From a virus (lineage: Duplodnaviria; Heunggongvirae; Uroviricota; Caudoviricetes), in IMG/VR virus record IMGVR_UViG_637000105_000004: 51,153 nt of DNA; one strand, written 5' to 3'. This document shows, piece after piece, positions 2,157 through 35,167 of this stretch. Each line of letters opens with the position of its first letter. The first letter of the stretch is position 1. Made by a program: the position numbers and the translations under genes. Under the pieces are notes generated by a model, which saw only the letters and a program-made list of their open reading frames with translations, ran no database searches and was not told the DNA's origin.

Positions 2157-2198
2157 GGGGTGTCGGGGGTCGGAGGTTCAAATCCTCTCGTGCCGACA
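2157..2198 (+). other. tRNA-Pro 3' fragment (T-arm plus acceptor 3' strand, no CCA); probable relic attachment site
   Basis: ggggtgtcgggggtcggaggttcaaatcctctcgtgccgac closely matches the 3' half of E. coli tRNA-Pro (proM/proL type) from memory; no 5' half is present. Confidence 0.6.
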
Positions 2199-2212
2199 AA
2201 AAATCCCTTAAG

Positions 2213-2240
2213 AACCAGCCTATTATGGCTGGTTTTTTTA
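2213..2240 (+). terminator. Putative Rho-independent terminator
   Basis: aaccagcc-tatta-tggctggtt hairpin followed by ttttttt. Confidence 0.55.
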
Positions 2241-2440
2241 TGATTGTTTTTTATGCGGAGAAATACCGGGGAATAATTGGGGTAAAACACCTTTAGGCTA
2301 TTCACTTAGCCTACCACCATCAAAATCTTTCCGAATGTATCCATCTCTTTTTTCTTATGCAGCTAAAACGAAGTCTTGATACTGTTTATTTACACAGATA
2401 AGAATAATACTGTCTACAAACGCAGTACAAAAGAAGTGTT

Positions 2441-2688
2441 ATGCGTATTGAGATCTCCATAGCCAAAGACAAAATGACCAAATGCCAAACGGTGCTGTGG
2501 ATGCGTTAAAGGAAGAATTAACTCGACGCATCAGTAAGCGTTATGACGATGTAGAGGTGATCGTAAAAGCCACCAGCAACGATGGCCTTTCTGTTACGCG
2601 CACCGCCGATAAAGATTCAGCTAAAACTTTTGTTCAGGAAACTCTGAAAGATACCTGGGAGTCTGCTGACGAGTGGTTTGTTCACTAA
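2441..2688 (+). pseudogene. dinI-like gene with apparent frameshift
   Basis: ATG at 2441 encodes [13 protein letters not shown] (DinI-like N-terminus) and stops after 22 codons; the +1 frame from 2482 encodes the rest, ending [16 protein letters not shown] (DinI-like C-terminus). Confidence 0.55.
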
Positions 2689-3114
2689 TTAACACGTAAA
2701 ATCGGTAACGGCTGGAAATCATTCAATACTCGCACTATCGGAAGTTCACCAGCCAACCGCAGCACGTTCTTGCATACGACGTGTCTGCGGTTTTTCAACC
2801 ATTTAGATACAGCACTCTCATCGCATTCATTCTTCCGCATTAAAGTATATATGACCATATCACCTTAATATTTTTCTTCTTCAGATAAAAATTGTTATCT
2901 ATGTATACTTTTAAACCGAATCCGTGTAGAGTCTCTACCTAAGTTAGTTCACAGTTACCCCTTCAGTTTGCGCCATTAACCTCCTGACTTTTGCCGCTAT
3001 CTGTAAGCATTCCTGTATACCTGAAACTACAGGGGTCATCTACGAACTTTAAGAACACCCAGGATAAAAATTGTCAACTATATTATATATAACACCATAC
3101 TAATTCGAGGTTAT

Positions 3115-31778: not shown

Positions 31779-32806
<1,028 letters not shown>

Positions 32807-32919
32807 GGATATTTATCAGGATTTATCGGCTTCAAATCCCCGGATATGTTAAATCTTACCTCACCAGTGATGGGCACTGGCGGGAGGAGGATGTCAATCT
32901 GATAAACACAGAGGTGACT

Positions 32920-33180
32920 ATGGATTACACAAATCTACCAAAACAAACTTTTGCTGATTTAATCGCACTCAGGCAAGCAGTCGTAGCTCTAATCAACTTG
33001 TTGCCGGAGAAGGAAAAGGAATTAGTTAAAGCGCTTCTTAACAGAACTGCCGCCGATTTTTCATCATATCCACTGACAGATGACCTTGCGGACCTTCCTG
33101 AATTAATTGCAGCGTCCGCCATTAAGCTTACTGAAGAGATTTACCCTCCTCAAAAATCTTCACAAAATTCCTGCGAGTAA
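32920..33180 (+). CDS. Hypothetical protein (86 aa) on the opposite strand within the lysis cassette
   Basis: GAGGTGA Shine-Dalgarno 4-5 nt upstream of ATG; helical-looking translation; 3' end overlaps the convergent 33128-33679 gene by about 50 bp. Confidence 0.4.
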   Translation: MDYTNLPKQTFADLIALRQAVVALINLLPEKEKELVKALLNRTAADFSSYPLTDDLADLPELIAASAIKLTEEIYPPQKSSQNSCE

Positions 33181-33679
33181 CTTCAATGCAATAATCGTAA
33201 AACGCCGCAAACTGCTCATCGCGGCGTTTTTTTTCATCTTCAGAAGGGATCAGCACCGACAATTTTTTATTCAGATCAGCGACGCTGCCCTCCAGTTTTT
33301 CAATGGGCGATTCAATATCATCTTTTTCTGACCGCAATGCCGTCGGTGGCGTCTTCAGAGAACCAGTAATTCTTCCCGGTAGCTTTCCTTTGTAGGTTAT
33401 CCACACATTCTGCGCCTCTAAAATTATGGGGCGCTTTTCCGGCGACTGCTCATCCCCTACACATAACCCGGCAGCAACATCCAGGAATACCTGTCTGATT
33501 CTCATTCTGGCTGCTGCCTCATAAAACTCCAGCGCGGCACCTTCAACACGGTCCAGCGAGATGTCCAGGTCAAAAATTTCACCGTCAAAGCGTTTTTTGT
33601 CCCGTAAGGCTACAGTTACCGCCACTTTATTCTCAAAATTGCGGACTCCTTTCACAACCAGTTCATAGTCTTGTGTCAT
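33128..33679 (-). CDS. Hypothetical protein between holin and endolysin (YdfR/DUF1327-like N-terminus, about 183 aa)
   Basis: ORF starting MTQDYELVVKG immediately after holin stop; N-terminal half resembles Qin YdfR from memory, with a C-terminal extension. Confidence 0.6.
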   Translation of the reverse strand: MTQDYELVVKGVRNFENKVAVTVALRDKKRFDGEIFDLDISLDRVEGAALEFYEAAARMRIRQVFLDVAAGLCVGDEQSPEKRPIILEAQNVWITYKGKLPGRITGSLKTPPTALRSEKDDIESPIEKLEGSVADLNKKLSVLIPSEDEKKRRDEQFAAFYDYCIEVTRRNFVKIFEEGKSLQ

Positions 33680-33683
33680 TGGA

Positions 33684-33899
33684 TTACTCTCTTCTCGCAA
33701 CCTTACGCCTGTCTTCTTTAATCTTGAAATAAAGGTTTGTCAGATACGTCAGCAGGCCAAAAACCAGACTACCCAGCACACCGATTGCAGCCCACTGTGA
33801 CGGAGTTACTTTATCGAGTAACTGCAATGCCCAGAAACCAGCATTACCAGCCGATGTGCCATAGGCGATACCTGTTGTTAACTTATCCATTGATTTCAT
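33684..33899 (-). CDS. Phage-21-type pinholin S (71 aa) with dual-start motif
   Basis: [28 protein letters not shown]...[15 protein letters not shown] resembles S21; Met1-Lys-Ser-Met4 gives antiholin and holin starts. Confidence 0.88.
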
Positions 33900-34117
33900 A
33901 TCCTCACCCCGATGTACACAGATGGTGCAATATGTTTGAAAAGATCGGAGTCTATGGGTTAGTTTTTATAGCAAACGTTGTTCTCAACGGCGCTAAAAAA
34001 CAGACACATTAAAAATGTGGGTAATTATTTTAAAAGAAAATCATATATTAAATAATAATACGAGATATGTTTTCATATTTAGTGTACTGTATACGGCCAT
34101 TTATACAGGAAAAGCCT

Positions 34118-34288
34118 ATGTCAGAACGTAAAGACTCAAAATCACGCCGTAATTATCTCGTTAAATGTTCCTGCCCAAACTGCACCCAAGAGTCAGAACA
34201 CAGTTTTTCAAGAGTACAAAAAGGTGCCCTTTTGATCTGCCCTCATTGCAACAAAGTATTCCAGACAAATCTTAAAGCTGTAGCTTGA
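34118..34288 (+). CDS. Small C4 zinc-ribbon protein (56 aa, YnfQ/YmcF-like)
   Basis: AGGAAAA Shine-Dalgarno; CxxC...CxxC motifs (CSCPNC, CPHC). Confidence 0.55.
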   Translation: MSERKDSKSRRNYLVKCSCPNCTQESEHSFSRVQKGALLICPHCNKVFQTNLKAVA

Positions 34289-34651
34289 TTGATTTTATTC
34301 GTAACAAGTATTTTTTATATTTTAATAACATATTTAAAGCAGATAATAAAAAACCCGCCTGAGCGGGTTTAATATTGTGGTACTTTTTGTGGGAGTCATC
34401 CACTTACGCACTTTGTTTTGCTATGCCAGCAGTTAGCTTCTGCTGTAAAACTATTCATGCAGCAAACCTGCACTTCACCACAATGGTTAGCATACTTTTC
34501 CTGATTAAGTTATTGCCAAATATGCTGGCCATTGTTTCATGTATTGGACCTCCTTACTATTTATTAAAGAGATCCAATATTCACCACTCTGTCTGTATCT
34601 CCACTCAGGCATCAGCCTTCTTCGTTATCGTATACAGACAAACTATGAATT

Positions 34652-34867
34652 TTAATCAGTAATTATGACATTTGCTGCTGCAGGACCTTTAGCACCACTC
34701 TCTACAGAGAAGGTAACCTTTTGACCTTCAAATAAGGTTCGAAAATTATCATTCTGAATCGCAGAAAAATGCACAAACACATCTTTACTACCATCAACAG
34801 GAGAAATAAAGCCAAAACCTTTATCAGCGTTAAACCATTTTACTAAACCAGTCATTTTATTTGACAT
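34652..34867 (-). CDS. cspB: Cold shock protein, CspA family (CspB-like, 71 aa)
   Basis: [42 protein letters not shown]... Confidence 0.9.
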
Positions 34868-35167
34868 TCTACATTCCTTAACTTGAGCCTTTCGGCATAA
34901 ATGGCTTGTATAACAGAAACGACTTCGTACTTAATTGGAGAGACTCAAAGAAGGAATAAGTGAATAACACCTGAAATGAGAACTGCTTTAGTAAACTACT
35001 TCGTATATCGTCTGTTCTTCAAACCGACGCAATCATTAACGCATAGTTGAACATATGAAGCAATGTTTATTTTAGACATCCAGCCATCTTCAACCCCATC
35101 AAAAAACTATAGCTTTCTTCAGGAACGTGTGTATAGTGCGCCCAGTTATCAGTATTAAGGAATTTTT

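What the first reader, a model, noticed from the sequence alone, without database searches (positions are those of the whole stretch)
32807..33700. Non-canonical lysis cassette: extra 183-aa gene and a convergent plus-strand ORF between pinholin and endolysin
Between the S21-type holin and the endolysin there is a 183-aa gene (YdfR-like N-terminus plus a ~90-aa extension) and, on the opposite strand, an 86-aa ORF with a good Shine-Dalgarno whose 3' end overlaps the former by ~50 bp. A convergent gene pair inside a lysis operon is unusual and could represent an antisense regulatory arrangement or a moron.
Basis: seen in the sequence. Interest (0 to 1): 0.45.

Follow-up and report, generated by a model that had tools for sequence, protein, structure and literature searches.

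The report
Conserved convergent gene pair in lysis cassette
Between the holin and endolysin genes of this E. coli prophage lies a real, evolutionarily conserved pair of small genes that face each other and overlap at their ends; it looks like a self-contained accessory ("moron") unit, and its function is still unknown.

Summary
The window is identical to the Qin-like prophage of E. coli CFT073/S88/APEC O1. A 183-aa minus-strand gene (33128-33679) lies between the S21-type holin and the SAR endolysin. An 86-aa plus-strand gene (32920-33180, good SD) converges on it with a 53-bp 3' overlap.

Neither ORF is an artefact. The 183-aa protein is YdfR/DUF1327 fused in frame to a ~70-aa helical module ("A"). 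Module A also occurs as a stand-alone 73-aa gene and inside 296-329-aa proteins. RefSeq's pseudogene call is therefore misleading.

The 86-aa gene ("B") has homologues at 41-57% identity. In every locus examined they keep the same convergent overlap (53 or 59 bp) with an A-type gene, including one case in a different position (after Rz).

A GC-rich hairpin follows the B stop and lies inside A's codons. In this window it carries a T8 tract. It is kept by a compensatory change and decays in alleles that lack B. Three unrelated plus-strand cargo genes share the same ~85-nt promoter-like head next to the endolysin start.

Best reading: a moron-type autonomous unit in a cassette-exchange slot. Function is unknown. 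Both ORFs are already catalogued as hypothetical (phrog_2572, phrog_2091).

The parts
33684..33899 (-). essQ, S21-type class II holin (pinholin), 71 aa, with the M1/M4 dual start
   Evidence: Pfam Phage_holin_2_1, E=7.3e-34. RefSeq annotates it as essQ.
33128..33679 (-). 183-aa YdfR-A fusion gene (late strand)
   Evidence: ORF. phrog_2091 matches 1-183/183 at E=4.7e-112. The exact protein is on at least 1000 contigs, named 'YdfR family protein'.
33344..33679 (-). YdfR/DUF1327 part of the fusion (residues 1-112)
   Evidence: PF07041. It aligns end to end with intact 115-aa YdfR. The AF2 model gives three strands plus a helix for residues 1-69. RefSeq annotates only this part, as a pseudogene.
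33128..33343 (-). Module A: ~71-aa helical-hairpin extension (TALRSEKDD...EKKRRDEQFAAFYDYCIEVTRRNFVKIFEEGKSLQ*)
   Evidence: Homologous to a stand-alone 73-aa gene that is translationally coupled to Rz (L014, L103). The same module also occurs inside 296-329-aa and 213-aa proteins. All indels between alleles are in frame (176, 171, 211 aa). AF2 predicts helices 123-143 and 147-182.
32920..33180 (+). Gene B: 86-aa acidic (pI 4.6) predicted three-helix protein, convergent with the lysis genes
   Evidence: RefSeq WP_001306174.1, hypothetical. phrog_2572 matches 1-86/86. True homologues are P0171 (57%; 49% in the MAFFT alignment) and P0172 (41%). It is the best-scoring and only stop-free frame. 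AF2 gives helices 8-27, 30-48 and 56-74 at pLDDT 68.
32910..32914 (+). Shine-Dalgarno sequence of B (AGAGG), 5 nt before the ATG
   Evidence: Read from the sequence. An SD (AAGGA) and a start codon are also kept in the two other subfamilies.
32822..32850 (+). Putative sigma-70 promoter of B: TTTATC (32822-32827), 17-nt spacer, TATGTT (32845-32850)
   Evidence: Inference only. The hexamers and spacing are kept in all three B subfamilies (TTTATC or CTTATC; TATGTT or TATTGT). The head is shared with two unrelated plus-strand cargo genes, and the 35-nt piece that holds the -35 is absent from cargo-less alleles. The strict consensus scan did not call it.
32865..32881 (+). Small hairpin CCAGTG-ATGGG-CACTGG in the presumed 5' leader of B
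   Evidence: Read from the sequence. It is conserved ahead of all three cargo types. Its role is inferred only.
33199..33234 (+). Hairpin AAAACGCCGC-N12-GCGGCG followed by T8, 18 nt after the B stop: terminator-like for B, lying inside A's codons KKRRDEQFAAFY
   Evidence: dG is -14.6 kcal/mol, z=-3.5. It is kept in all three B subfamilies, with one compensatory G-C to A-U change. It is weakened, broken or deleted in alleles without B. The scan tool missed it because its loop of 12 exceeds the limit of 8.
33128..33180 (.). 53-bp region where the 3' coding ends of A and B overlap
   Evidence: The overlap is 53 bp in subfamily 1 and 59 bp in subfamilies 2 and 3.
32273..32806 (-). rrrQ, SAR-type endolysin, downstream late gene
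   Evidence: Pfam Phage_lysozyme, E=2.6e-24. RefSeq annotation.
31779..32276 (-). rzpQ i-spanin (DUF2514), with an embedded Rz1-like lipoprotein ORF (31829-32125)
   Evidence: Pfam DUF2514. K-12 annotates rzoQ at the equivalent place.

Best explanation
This is a conserved two-gene convergent module sitting in a cargo slot of the lysis cassette.

Late strand. The holin is followed by YdfR (DUF1327) fused in frame to a ~70-aa helical-hairpin module A. This gene is transcribed with S, R and Rz from the late promoter.

Opposite strand. Gene B (86 aa, acidic, predicted three-helix) is an autonomous moron-type unit. Transcription is inferred to start at a weak but conserved sigma-70-like promoter (TTTATC-17-TATGTT, 32822-32850) that abuts the endolysin start. 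B is translated from its own SD. Its transcript is inferred to end at the hairpin plus T8 at 33199-33234, which is written into A's codons. That would keep B transcription from running antisense into ydfR and the holin. Q-modified late polymerase would be expected to read through the same hairpin to reach R and Rz.

The promoter head on one side and module A on the other are constant arms. Different plus-strand cargo genes have been exchanged between them.

What is shown in silico:
- both ORFs are real coding genes;
- the pair is conserved;
- the hairpin tracks B rather than A;
- the head is shared between cargo types.

What is inferred:
- promoter activity;
- termination;
- expression of B in the lysogen.

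The biochemical function of A and B is not known.
For: (1) B is a real gene.
- phmmer against 1.84 billion proteins found P0171 (93 aa, 57% in that search; 49% in the MAFFT alignment) and P0172 (89 aa, 41%).
- The B frame has no stops and the highest BLOSUM score of six frames in all three cross-subfamily comparisons: 152, 130 and 178, against 134, 75 and 139 for the best shadow frame.
- The SD and start codon are conserved.

(2) A is a real module.
- It is a stand-alone 73-aa gene whose ATG overlaps the Rz stop (L014, L103).
- It is fused to YdfR in 183, 176, 171, 211 and 243-aa alleles that differ only by in-frame indels.
- It is fused to a further ~120-aa domain in 296-329-aa proteins, and it occurs without YdfR in a 213-aa protein.

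(3) The pair is conserved. The overlap is 53 or 59 bp in every locus. There are 94 loci in three subfamilies, and one subfamily sits after Rz instead of between S and R.

(4) The hairpin tracks B.
- With B: dG is -14.6, -12.4 and -20.1 kcal/mol (z = -3.5 to -5.4), with one compensatory pair.
- Without B: it carries a mismatch (dG -8.4, z=-1.1), has a broken T tract, or has lost its 3' arm, while A's reading frame stays open.

(5) The head is shared. B, a 104-aa gene (77% identical to orf6 of Stx2 phage 86) and a 233-aa gene all follow the same ~85-nt head. Cargo-less alleles lack the 35 nt that carry the -35. The 233-aa cargo has its own hairpin plus T7.

(6) Moron traits. The module is absent from K-12 Qin and from O157 prophages with the short YdfR. 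G+C is 41-42%, against 45-52% in the neighbouring genes.

(7) Inducible, plaque-forming phages carry the cassette (2H10, PhiR63_1, PhiR12_x, PhiR5_1), so it does not disable lysis.
Against: - No expression data were available, so promoter use and termination are untested.
- The putative promoter is weak (3/6 and 4/6 matches) and failed the strict scan.
- The same head is present in short-YdfR prophages that carry no cargo.
- Only subfamily 1 has a proper T tract after the hairpin. Subfamily 3 has none.
- The 12-nt loop is long for an intrinsic terminator.
- The B-less hairpin variants share one mismatch, so they may be a single lineage.
- Within-subfamily polymorphism is too sparse for dN/dS.
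- There is no functional hint from Pfam, PADLOC, PDB sequences or Foldseek.
- The strict A-B linkage hints at more than a simple passenger gene.
Confidence: 0.6

Rival explanations
1. A and B are functional protein partners. A would be a late-expressed effector domain, delivered alone or on YdfR. B would be a convergently encoded antagonist or immunity-like binder made outside the late programme, in the manner of a toxin-antitoxin or effector-inhibitor pair.
For: A and B are strictly linked in three diverged subfamilies and in two genomic positions. Both are small helical proteins. B is acidic (pI 4.6) and stand-alone A is basic (pI 8.9).
Against: Module A is common without B, in the 296-aa A-CTD proteins seen on 129 or more contigs. 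One lysogen has an IS3 inside B while A is intact (L010). The A part in this window is itself acidic (pI 5.0). There is no match to any known TA or defence family. The physical overlap makes linkage partly automatic.
Confidence: 0.2
2. The arrangement acts at the RNA level as cis-antisense control. The B transcript is fully complementary to the late polycistronic mRNA between ydfR-A and R, and it shares the hairpin with the 3' end of A. It would pair with leaky late transcripts in the lysogen, followed by RNase III cleavage or transcriptional interference, to damp endolysin and spanin expression. Conversely, late transcription would switch B off.
For: The geometry is convergent, with a conserved 53-59 bp coding overlap and about 110 nt of transcript overlap if B ends at the hairpin. 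The hairpin has an A tract upstream and a T tract downstream, so it is potentially bidirectional. The geometry resembles 3'-overlapping type I TA loci (from my own knowledge of txpA/RatA, bsrG/SR4 and par of pAD1).
Against: B is conserved at the protein level, with SD and start codon kept, so it is not merely an RNA. Two unrelated cargo genes occupy the same slot, which points to 'an expression site' rather than a specific antisense sequence. No transcript data were available.
Confidence: 0.15
3. The finding is an annotation artefact. The plus ORF would be a chance or shadow ORF. The 183-aa ORF would be a ydfR pseudogene that reads through into junk after an insertion, as RefSeq's 'missing C-terminus' flag suggests.
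For: PGAP marks ydfR as a pseudogene in CFT073. A 65-aa shadow ORF lies antisense to B. Within-subfamily substitutions do not discriminate between frames.
Against: There are diverged homologues of both B and A with conserved starts and in-frame indels. A exists as a stand-alone gene. The alleles are intact in nearly all complete loci: 62 of 183 aa, 8 of 176 aa, 6 of 243 aa, and so on.
Confidence: 0.03

Closest known systems
Morons of lambdoid prophages (autonomous promoter-gene-terminator units inside late operons, such as lambda bor and lom; concept of Hendrix and colleagues, cited from my own knowledge)
   Same: It is an extra gene absent from sister prophages. It has lower G+C, its own SD, a terminator-like hairpin straight after the stop, and a promoter-like head. 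It sits inside a late operon.
   Different: It is oriented against the late operon. It overlaps the 3' coding end of a late gene, and its terminator is written into that gene's codons. It also travels with a specific partner module (A) on the other strand.
YdfR / DUF1327 (PF07041) of the Qin prophage
   Same: The N-terminal 112 residues are a full DUF1327 domain, in the canonical place between the class II holin and the endolysin. K-12 YdfR binds the catalytic half of RNase E through residues 1-72 and co-purifies with RNA (PMC13232886).
   Different: It is 183 aa instead of 103-116 aa, because module A is fused in frame where the normal stop would be. No function is known for the fusion.
3'-overlapping type I toxin-antitoxin loci (txpA/RatA and bsrG/SR4 of B. 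subtilis; par of pAD1; from my own knowledge)
   Same: The transcription units converge, overlap at their 3' ends, and share a hairpin.
   Different: Neither partner is a small hydrophobic toxin. The 'antisense' partner is a conserved protein-coding gene.
PHROG families phrog_2572 (B), phrog_2091 (183-aa YdfR-A) and phrog_1085 (296-aa YdfR-A-CTD)
   Same: There are full-length matches at E=1e-53 to 1e-190.
   Different: All three families are annotated 'unknown function'. The families do not record the pairing, the overlap or the embedded hairpin.

Membership tests
Moron (autonomous accessory transcription unit in a prophage late region) | Gene present in some and absent from other closely related prophages at the same position | tested here: met
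   It is absent from K-12 Qin and from O157 prophages with the 115-aa YdfR. It is present in 293 of 5426 E. coli genomes.
Moron (autonomous accessory transcription unit in a prophage late region) | Own promoter | tested here: inconclusive
   TTTATC-17-TATGTT is conserved and shared by three cargo types, and its -35 piece is missing from cargo-less alleles. However, it is weak, was not called by the scan, and is also present in cargo-free short-YdfR alleles.
Moron (autonomous accessory transcription unit in a prophage late region) | Own intrinsic terminator | tested here: met
   A hairpin of dG -14.6 kcal/mol plus T8 lies 18 nt after the stop. It is kept by a compensatory change and lost where B is absent. 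This is in silico only, and the T tract is weak or absent in subfamilies 2 and 3.
Moron (autonomous accessory transcription unit in a prophage late region) | Expressed from the repressed prophage | not testable with these tools
   No transcriptome or proteome data were accessible.
Moron (autonomous accessory transcription unit in a prophage late region) | Base composition differs from its surroundings | tested here: met
   B has 41.4% G+C and module A 42.1%, against 44.9-51.5% for the holin, ydfR-N, R and Rz.
YdfR / DUF1327 (PF07041) | Pfam match above the gathering score | tested here: met
   140.7 bits against a cut-off of 25, covering residues 8-119.
YdfR / DUF1327 (PF07041) | Single-domain protein of about 100-116 aa | tested here: not met
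   It is 183 aa. Residues 113-183 are the separate module A.
Type I toxin-antitoxin with 3'-overlapping convergent RNAs | Convergent units overlapping at their 3' ends | tested here: met
   There is a 53-bp coding overlap, and the hairpin lies within A.
Type I toxin-antitoxin with 3'-overlapping convergent RNAs | Small hydrophobic membrane toxin | tested here: not met
   A and B are hydrophilic helical proteins (GRAVY -0.75 and -0.11) with no predicted TM segment.
Type I toxin-antitoxin with 3'-overlapping convergent RNAs | Antitoxin is a non-coding RNA | tested here: not met
   B is conserved as a protein, with SD and start codon kept.
Type II toxin-antitoxin or known anti-phage defence systems | Match to a known toxin, antitoxin or defence protein family | tested here: not met
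   Pfam and PADLOC give nothing for A, B or their homologues.
Anti-CRISPR AcrIIC4 | Significant sequence or fold similarity | tested here: not met
   The best profile hit to PDB has E about 0.2. Foldseek against PDB finds nothing below E=6.
PHROG phrog_2572 / phrog_2091 | Full-length profile match | tested here: met
   E=1.2e-53 (1-86/86) and E=4.7e-112 (1-183/183).

The most novel reading that the evidence does not exclude
The slot between ydfR and the endolysin would be a dedicated cassette-exchange and expression site. A constant promoter head and the constant A module flank interchangeable plus-strand cargo genes. Within it, A and B would form a functional pair. YdfR-A would be a late, RNase E-directed (RNA-metabolism) effector. 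B would be its convergently encoded antagonist, made in the lysogen, with the shared hairpin coupling the two at the RNA level.
Probability: 0.12. Interest if true: 0.7.

Novelty: new variant of a known kind. Interest (0 to 1): 0.45.

Why it matters
Lysis cassettes of lambdoid phages are treated as a compact holin-endolysin-spanin unit. This work shows that in S21-type cassettes the holin-endolysin junction is a recurrent slot for accessory genes read against the late operon.

One such gene (B) is locked in a conserved overlapping pair with a module (A) that is usually fused to YdfR. YdfR was recently reported to bind RNase E. The module is present in about 5% of complete E. coli genomes, including the uropathogens CFT073 and S88 and the avian pathogen APEC O1, and in inducible phages.

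If B is expressed in lysogens, it is a candidate lysogenic-conversion, exclusion or anti-defence factor. If A and B interact, they would give a first handle on what YdfR-family proteins do during lysis.

There is also a practical point. RefSeq flags the 183-aa gene as a pseudogene in CFT073, and that call should be revisited.

Tried and rejected
- Strict promoter/terminator scan. It found no promoter for B. It missed the hairpin because its loop limit is 8.
- Rfam. Nothing in the cassette, only the cspA thermoregulator upstream of cspB.
- Codon-position and syn/nonsyn counts. I ran them between 92-94% identical alleles and among 22 distinct alleles. There were too few changes, and the shadow frame shares third positions with B, so the result is uninformative.
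- Word-indexed protein search with B. It found only relatives of at least 77% identity. The exhaustive phmmer search was needed.
- P0170, a 975-aa TPR/CHAT protein hit. Rejected as helical-repeat noise.
- Species-representative genome scan. It returned E. coli only.
- 'DUF1823', as annotated in the PhiR phages. Not reproduced by hmmscan; the best Pfam hit for B was ABATE at E=0.07.
- Relatedness of B to the 104-aa cargo of Stx2 phages. Rejected: BLASTP found nothing and hhalign gave probability 0.2%.
- Structure route. B has pLDDT 68 and no Foldseek hit. YdfR-A has pLDDT 57, which is too low for a meaningful fold search.
- PADLOC. No hits for A or B (the only listing was a 0.017 E-value match of the 296-aa A-CTD protein P0080 to PbeC).
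- Literature. No paper in the held library describes the pair. Only the RNase E study covers YdfR itself.
- Simple 'insertion truncated ydfR' model. Rejected, because the inserted extension is itself a conserved module.

Full report
**What is there**

The window matches the Qin-like prophage of E. coli CFT073, S88, APEC O1 and many other strains at 100% identity over 32700-33950. The lysis cassette lies on the minus strand and is complete:
- S21-type holin essQ, 33684-33899;
- a 183-aa ORF, 33128-33679;
- SAR endolysin rrrQ, 32273-32806;
- spanin rzpQ, 31779-32276, with an embedded Rz1-like ORF.

On the plus strand an 86-aa ORF (32920-33180) has an AGAGG Shine-Dalgarno 5 nt before its ATG. Its 3' end overlaps the 183-aa ORF by 53 bp. 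The only correction is that the YdfR-homologous part runs to residue ~112. Intact 115-aa YdfR proteins end there (...GSLKTPPLA*), so the extension is ~71 aa.

RefSeq annotates the plus ORF as hypothetical protein WP_001306174.1. It annotates only 33344-33679 of the minus gene, as a YdfR pseudogene 'missing C-terminus'. Other NCBI records call the same 183-aa sequence 'YdfR family protein'. Both exact proteins occur on at least 1000 contigs. Both are full-length members of PHROG families of unknown function, phrog_2572 and phrog_2091.

**The extension is a real module (A), not read-through junk**

The ~70-aa sequence after YdfR is SEKDDIES.IEKLE...ELNKKLS..PSED.KKRRDEQFAAFYDYC..V.RRNF.K.F. It recurs in many contexts:
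- It is fused to YdfR in alleles of 183, 176, 171 and 211 aa that differ only by in-frame indels.
- It is fused to YdfR plus a further ~120-aa C-terminal domain in 296-329-aa proteins. These belong to phrog_1085. P0080 has an N-terminus identical to the window's YdfR part.
- It occurs without YdfR, at the start of a 213-aa protein directly after the holin in an Stx2a phage.
- Most telling, it is a stand-alone 73-aa gene whose ATG overlaps the Rz stop in another phage lineage.

AF2 models the window protein in three parts. Residues 1-69 form a three-stranded sheet plus a helix. Residues 71-126 are a low-confidence linker. Residues 123-182 form a helical hairpin. Overall pLDDT is 57. The PGAP pseudogene flag appears to come from a length mismatch with the ~115-aa family model.

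**The plus-strand ORF (B) is a real gene, and the pair is conserved**

A word-indexed search found only close E. coli relatives. An exhaustive phmmer search of 1.84 billion representatives found P0171 (93 aa, 57% identity in that search; 49% in the MAFFT alignment) and P0172 (89 aa, 41%). A 975-aa TPR/CHAT hit is repeat noise.

The contigs that encode these homologues, plus further viral contigs, define three subfamilies. In every case B is convergent with an A-type gene and overlaps its 3' end by 53 or 59 bp.
- In subfamilies 1 and 3 the order is holin, YdfR-A, B (opposite strand), endolysin.
- In subfamily 2 the order is endolysin, Ant, Rz, A (73 aa), B (opposite strand), small terminase. 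The pair therefore moved as a unit.

Across 94 loci, tblastn and ORF analysis found no B without an A partner. Most alleles are intact: 62 of 183 aa, 8 of 176 aa, 6 of 243 aa.

In the part of B outside the overlap, the B frame is the only stop-free frame in all three subfamilies. It also has the best cross-subfamily BLOSUM score: 152, 130 and 178, against 134, 75 and 139 for the shadow frame. The SD and start codon (ATG or GTG) are kept. AF2 predicts three helices at pLDDT 68. B is acidic, with pI 4.6.

**The hairpin belongs to B**

Eighteen nt after the B stop lies AAAACGCCGC-N12-GCGGCG followed by T8 (33199-33234). Its dG is -14.6 kcal/mol and z is -3.5. It is written into A's codons KKRRDEQFAAFY.
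- Subfamily 2 keeps it: AACGCCGC/GCGGCGTT, dG -12.4 kcal/mol.
- Subfamily 3 keeps it through a compensatory G-C to A-U change plus one extra pair: AACGCCACC/GGTGGCGTT, dG -20.1 kcal/mol. This happens even though the encoded residues change from RR..AA to RH..VA.
- In alleles that retain module A but lack B, the hairpin decays. It carries a C-to-A mismatch (dG -8.4, z=-1.1), or it loses the T tract, or its 3' arm is deleted by an in-frame 15-nt deletion.

The hairpin therefore tracks B and not A, as expected for B's terminator or 3' stabiliser. There are caveats. Only subfamily 1 has a strong T tract, the loop is long, and the B-less variants may be one lineage.

**A shared head and a cargo slot**

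The 42 nt next to the endolysin start read ATATTTATCAGGATTTATCGG....ATCCCCGGATATGTT. They contain TTTATC-17-TATGTT (32822-32850).
- This block is 64-93% identical (27-39 of 42 positions) between subfamilies.
- The leader downstream of it is ~40% identical.
- B coding DNA is 57-63% identical.
- In subfamily 2 the block is kept although no endolysin gene follows it.

Two unrelated plus-strand genes follow the same ~85-nt head, including a small hairpin CCAGTG.TGGGCACTGG. One is a 104-aa gene in Stx2a phages, 77% identical to orf6 of Stx2 phage 86. The other is a 233-aa gene in Stx1a and Stx2a phages, which has its own hairpin plus T7. Alleles in which the A-CTD gene abuts the endolysin, with no plus-strand cargo, lack the 35 nt that hold the -35.

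B and module A have 41-42% G+C, against 45-52% for their neighbours. The module is absent from K-12 Qin and from O157 prophages with the short YdfR. Together these are the marks of a moron slot with constant arms (the head and module A) and exchangeable cargo.

The promoter remains putative. It is weak, the strict scan did not call it, and short-YdfR alleles carry the head without any cargo.

**Function**

No family, fold or defence-system match was found for A or B. The best PDB profile hit, AcrIIC4, has E about 0.2 and is not significant.

For YdfR itself, a 2026 study reports three things: binding to the catalytic half of RNase E through residues 1-72, co-purifying RNA, and no expression under standard growth (PMC13232886).

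Inducible phages carry the cassette (2H10, PhiR63_1, PhiR12_x, PhiR5_1), so it is compatible with lysis. One lysogen has an IS3 in B while A is intact, and A-CTD proteins are common without B. Both facts argue against B being an indispensable antidote to A.

**Verdict**

It is a conserved, overlapping, convergent gene pair, in which B looks like an autonomous moron-type unit in a cargo slot of the lysis cassette. It is not a pseudogene plus a chance ORF.

Both genes are already catalogued as hypothetical. The kind (a moron, or accessory gene in a late operon) is known. The variant is new as far as the held literature shows: cargo in the opposite orientation, a conserved 3' overlap with a partner module, and a terminator embedded in that partner's codons.

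Whether the pair acts through RNA, through protein partnership, or simply as cargo remains open and needs expression data.

Noticed in passing
window 33344-33679 (L001 4645-4980): RefSeq/PGAP flags ydfR in CFT073 as a pseudogene 'missing C-terminus'. The ORF is in fact open for 183 aa, and other records annotate the same sequence as an intact YdfR family protein. The flag looks like a model-length artefact.
   Followed up: yes
L004 1709-2410 (+) versus 2159-2950 (-); same in L007 and L013: In Stx1a and Stx2a phages of O157, a 233-aa plus-strand orphan ORF with its own hairpin plus T7 overlaps the last ~90 codons of a 263-aa YdfR-A ORF by 250 bp. DFAST annotates the minus ORF and PGAP annotates neither. 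Which part is truly coding is unresolved.
   Followed up: partly
L011 1718-2032 (+): A 104-aa plus-strand gene sits behind the same head next to the endolysin in Stx2a phages. It is 77% identical to orf6 of Stx2 phage 86 and is unrelated to B.
   Followed up: partly
L005 2086-2979, L012 2087-3076, L011 2044-2685; proteins P0080, P0099, P0166: A ~120-aa C-terminal domain (EWECNRPSFVVSGD.GKITISENGKVTPPSHQH...IEFAIDYLKNNKKQGLMKR.GRCMGYLQ...) follows module A in 213-329-aa proteins (phrog_1085). It has no Pfam, PDB or PADLOC match.
   Followed up: partly
window 32858-32885 and 33330-33345 versus L003 1545-1575: Both junctions of the A/B module carry similar short sequences (CCAGTGATGGGC and CCGTCGGTGGCG). 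Short-YdfR alleles read CCAGCGGTGGCG at the fused point. They might therefore be deletion derivatives formed through this microhomology.
   Followed up: no
L010 (E. coli GF66.2), equivalent to window ~32980: An IS3-family element is inserted inside gene B, while YdfR-A, the holin and the endolysin remain.
   Followed up: partly
proteins P0144, P0150, P0164 (173-187 aa) and P0131 (207 aa): Some database entries combine the holin (PF04971) and DUF1327 in one protein. One entry has a tandem duplication inside YdfR. These may be frameshift or assembly variants.
   Followed up: no
window 34589-35028 (-): Full-length match to the cspA thermoregulator RNA (156 bits, E=5e-42), covering the 5' leader and the start of the cspB coding region. 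The lysis cassette is flanked by the cold-shock genes cspB, cspF and cspI, as in K-12 Qin.
   Followed up: no
window 34119-34288 (+) and 34351-34370 (-): There is a YnfU-like small zinc-ribbon ORF (CPNC...CPHC) between the holin and cspB. A strong terminator-like hairpin (AAACCCGCTCAGGCGGGTTT plus a T run) lies downstream of cspB on the minus strand.
   Followed up: no
alignment A4 versus PDB: The B profile gives weak, non-significant hits (E about 0.2) over residues 25-86 to the 88-aa anti-CRISPR AcrIIC4. This is probably chance similarity between small acidic helical proteins, but it is a lead for an anti-defence test.
   Followed up: partly
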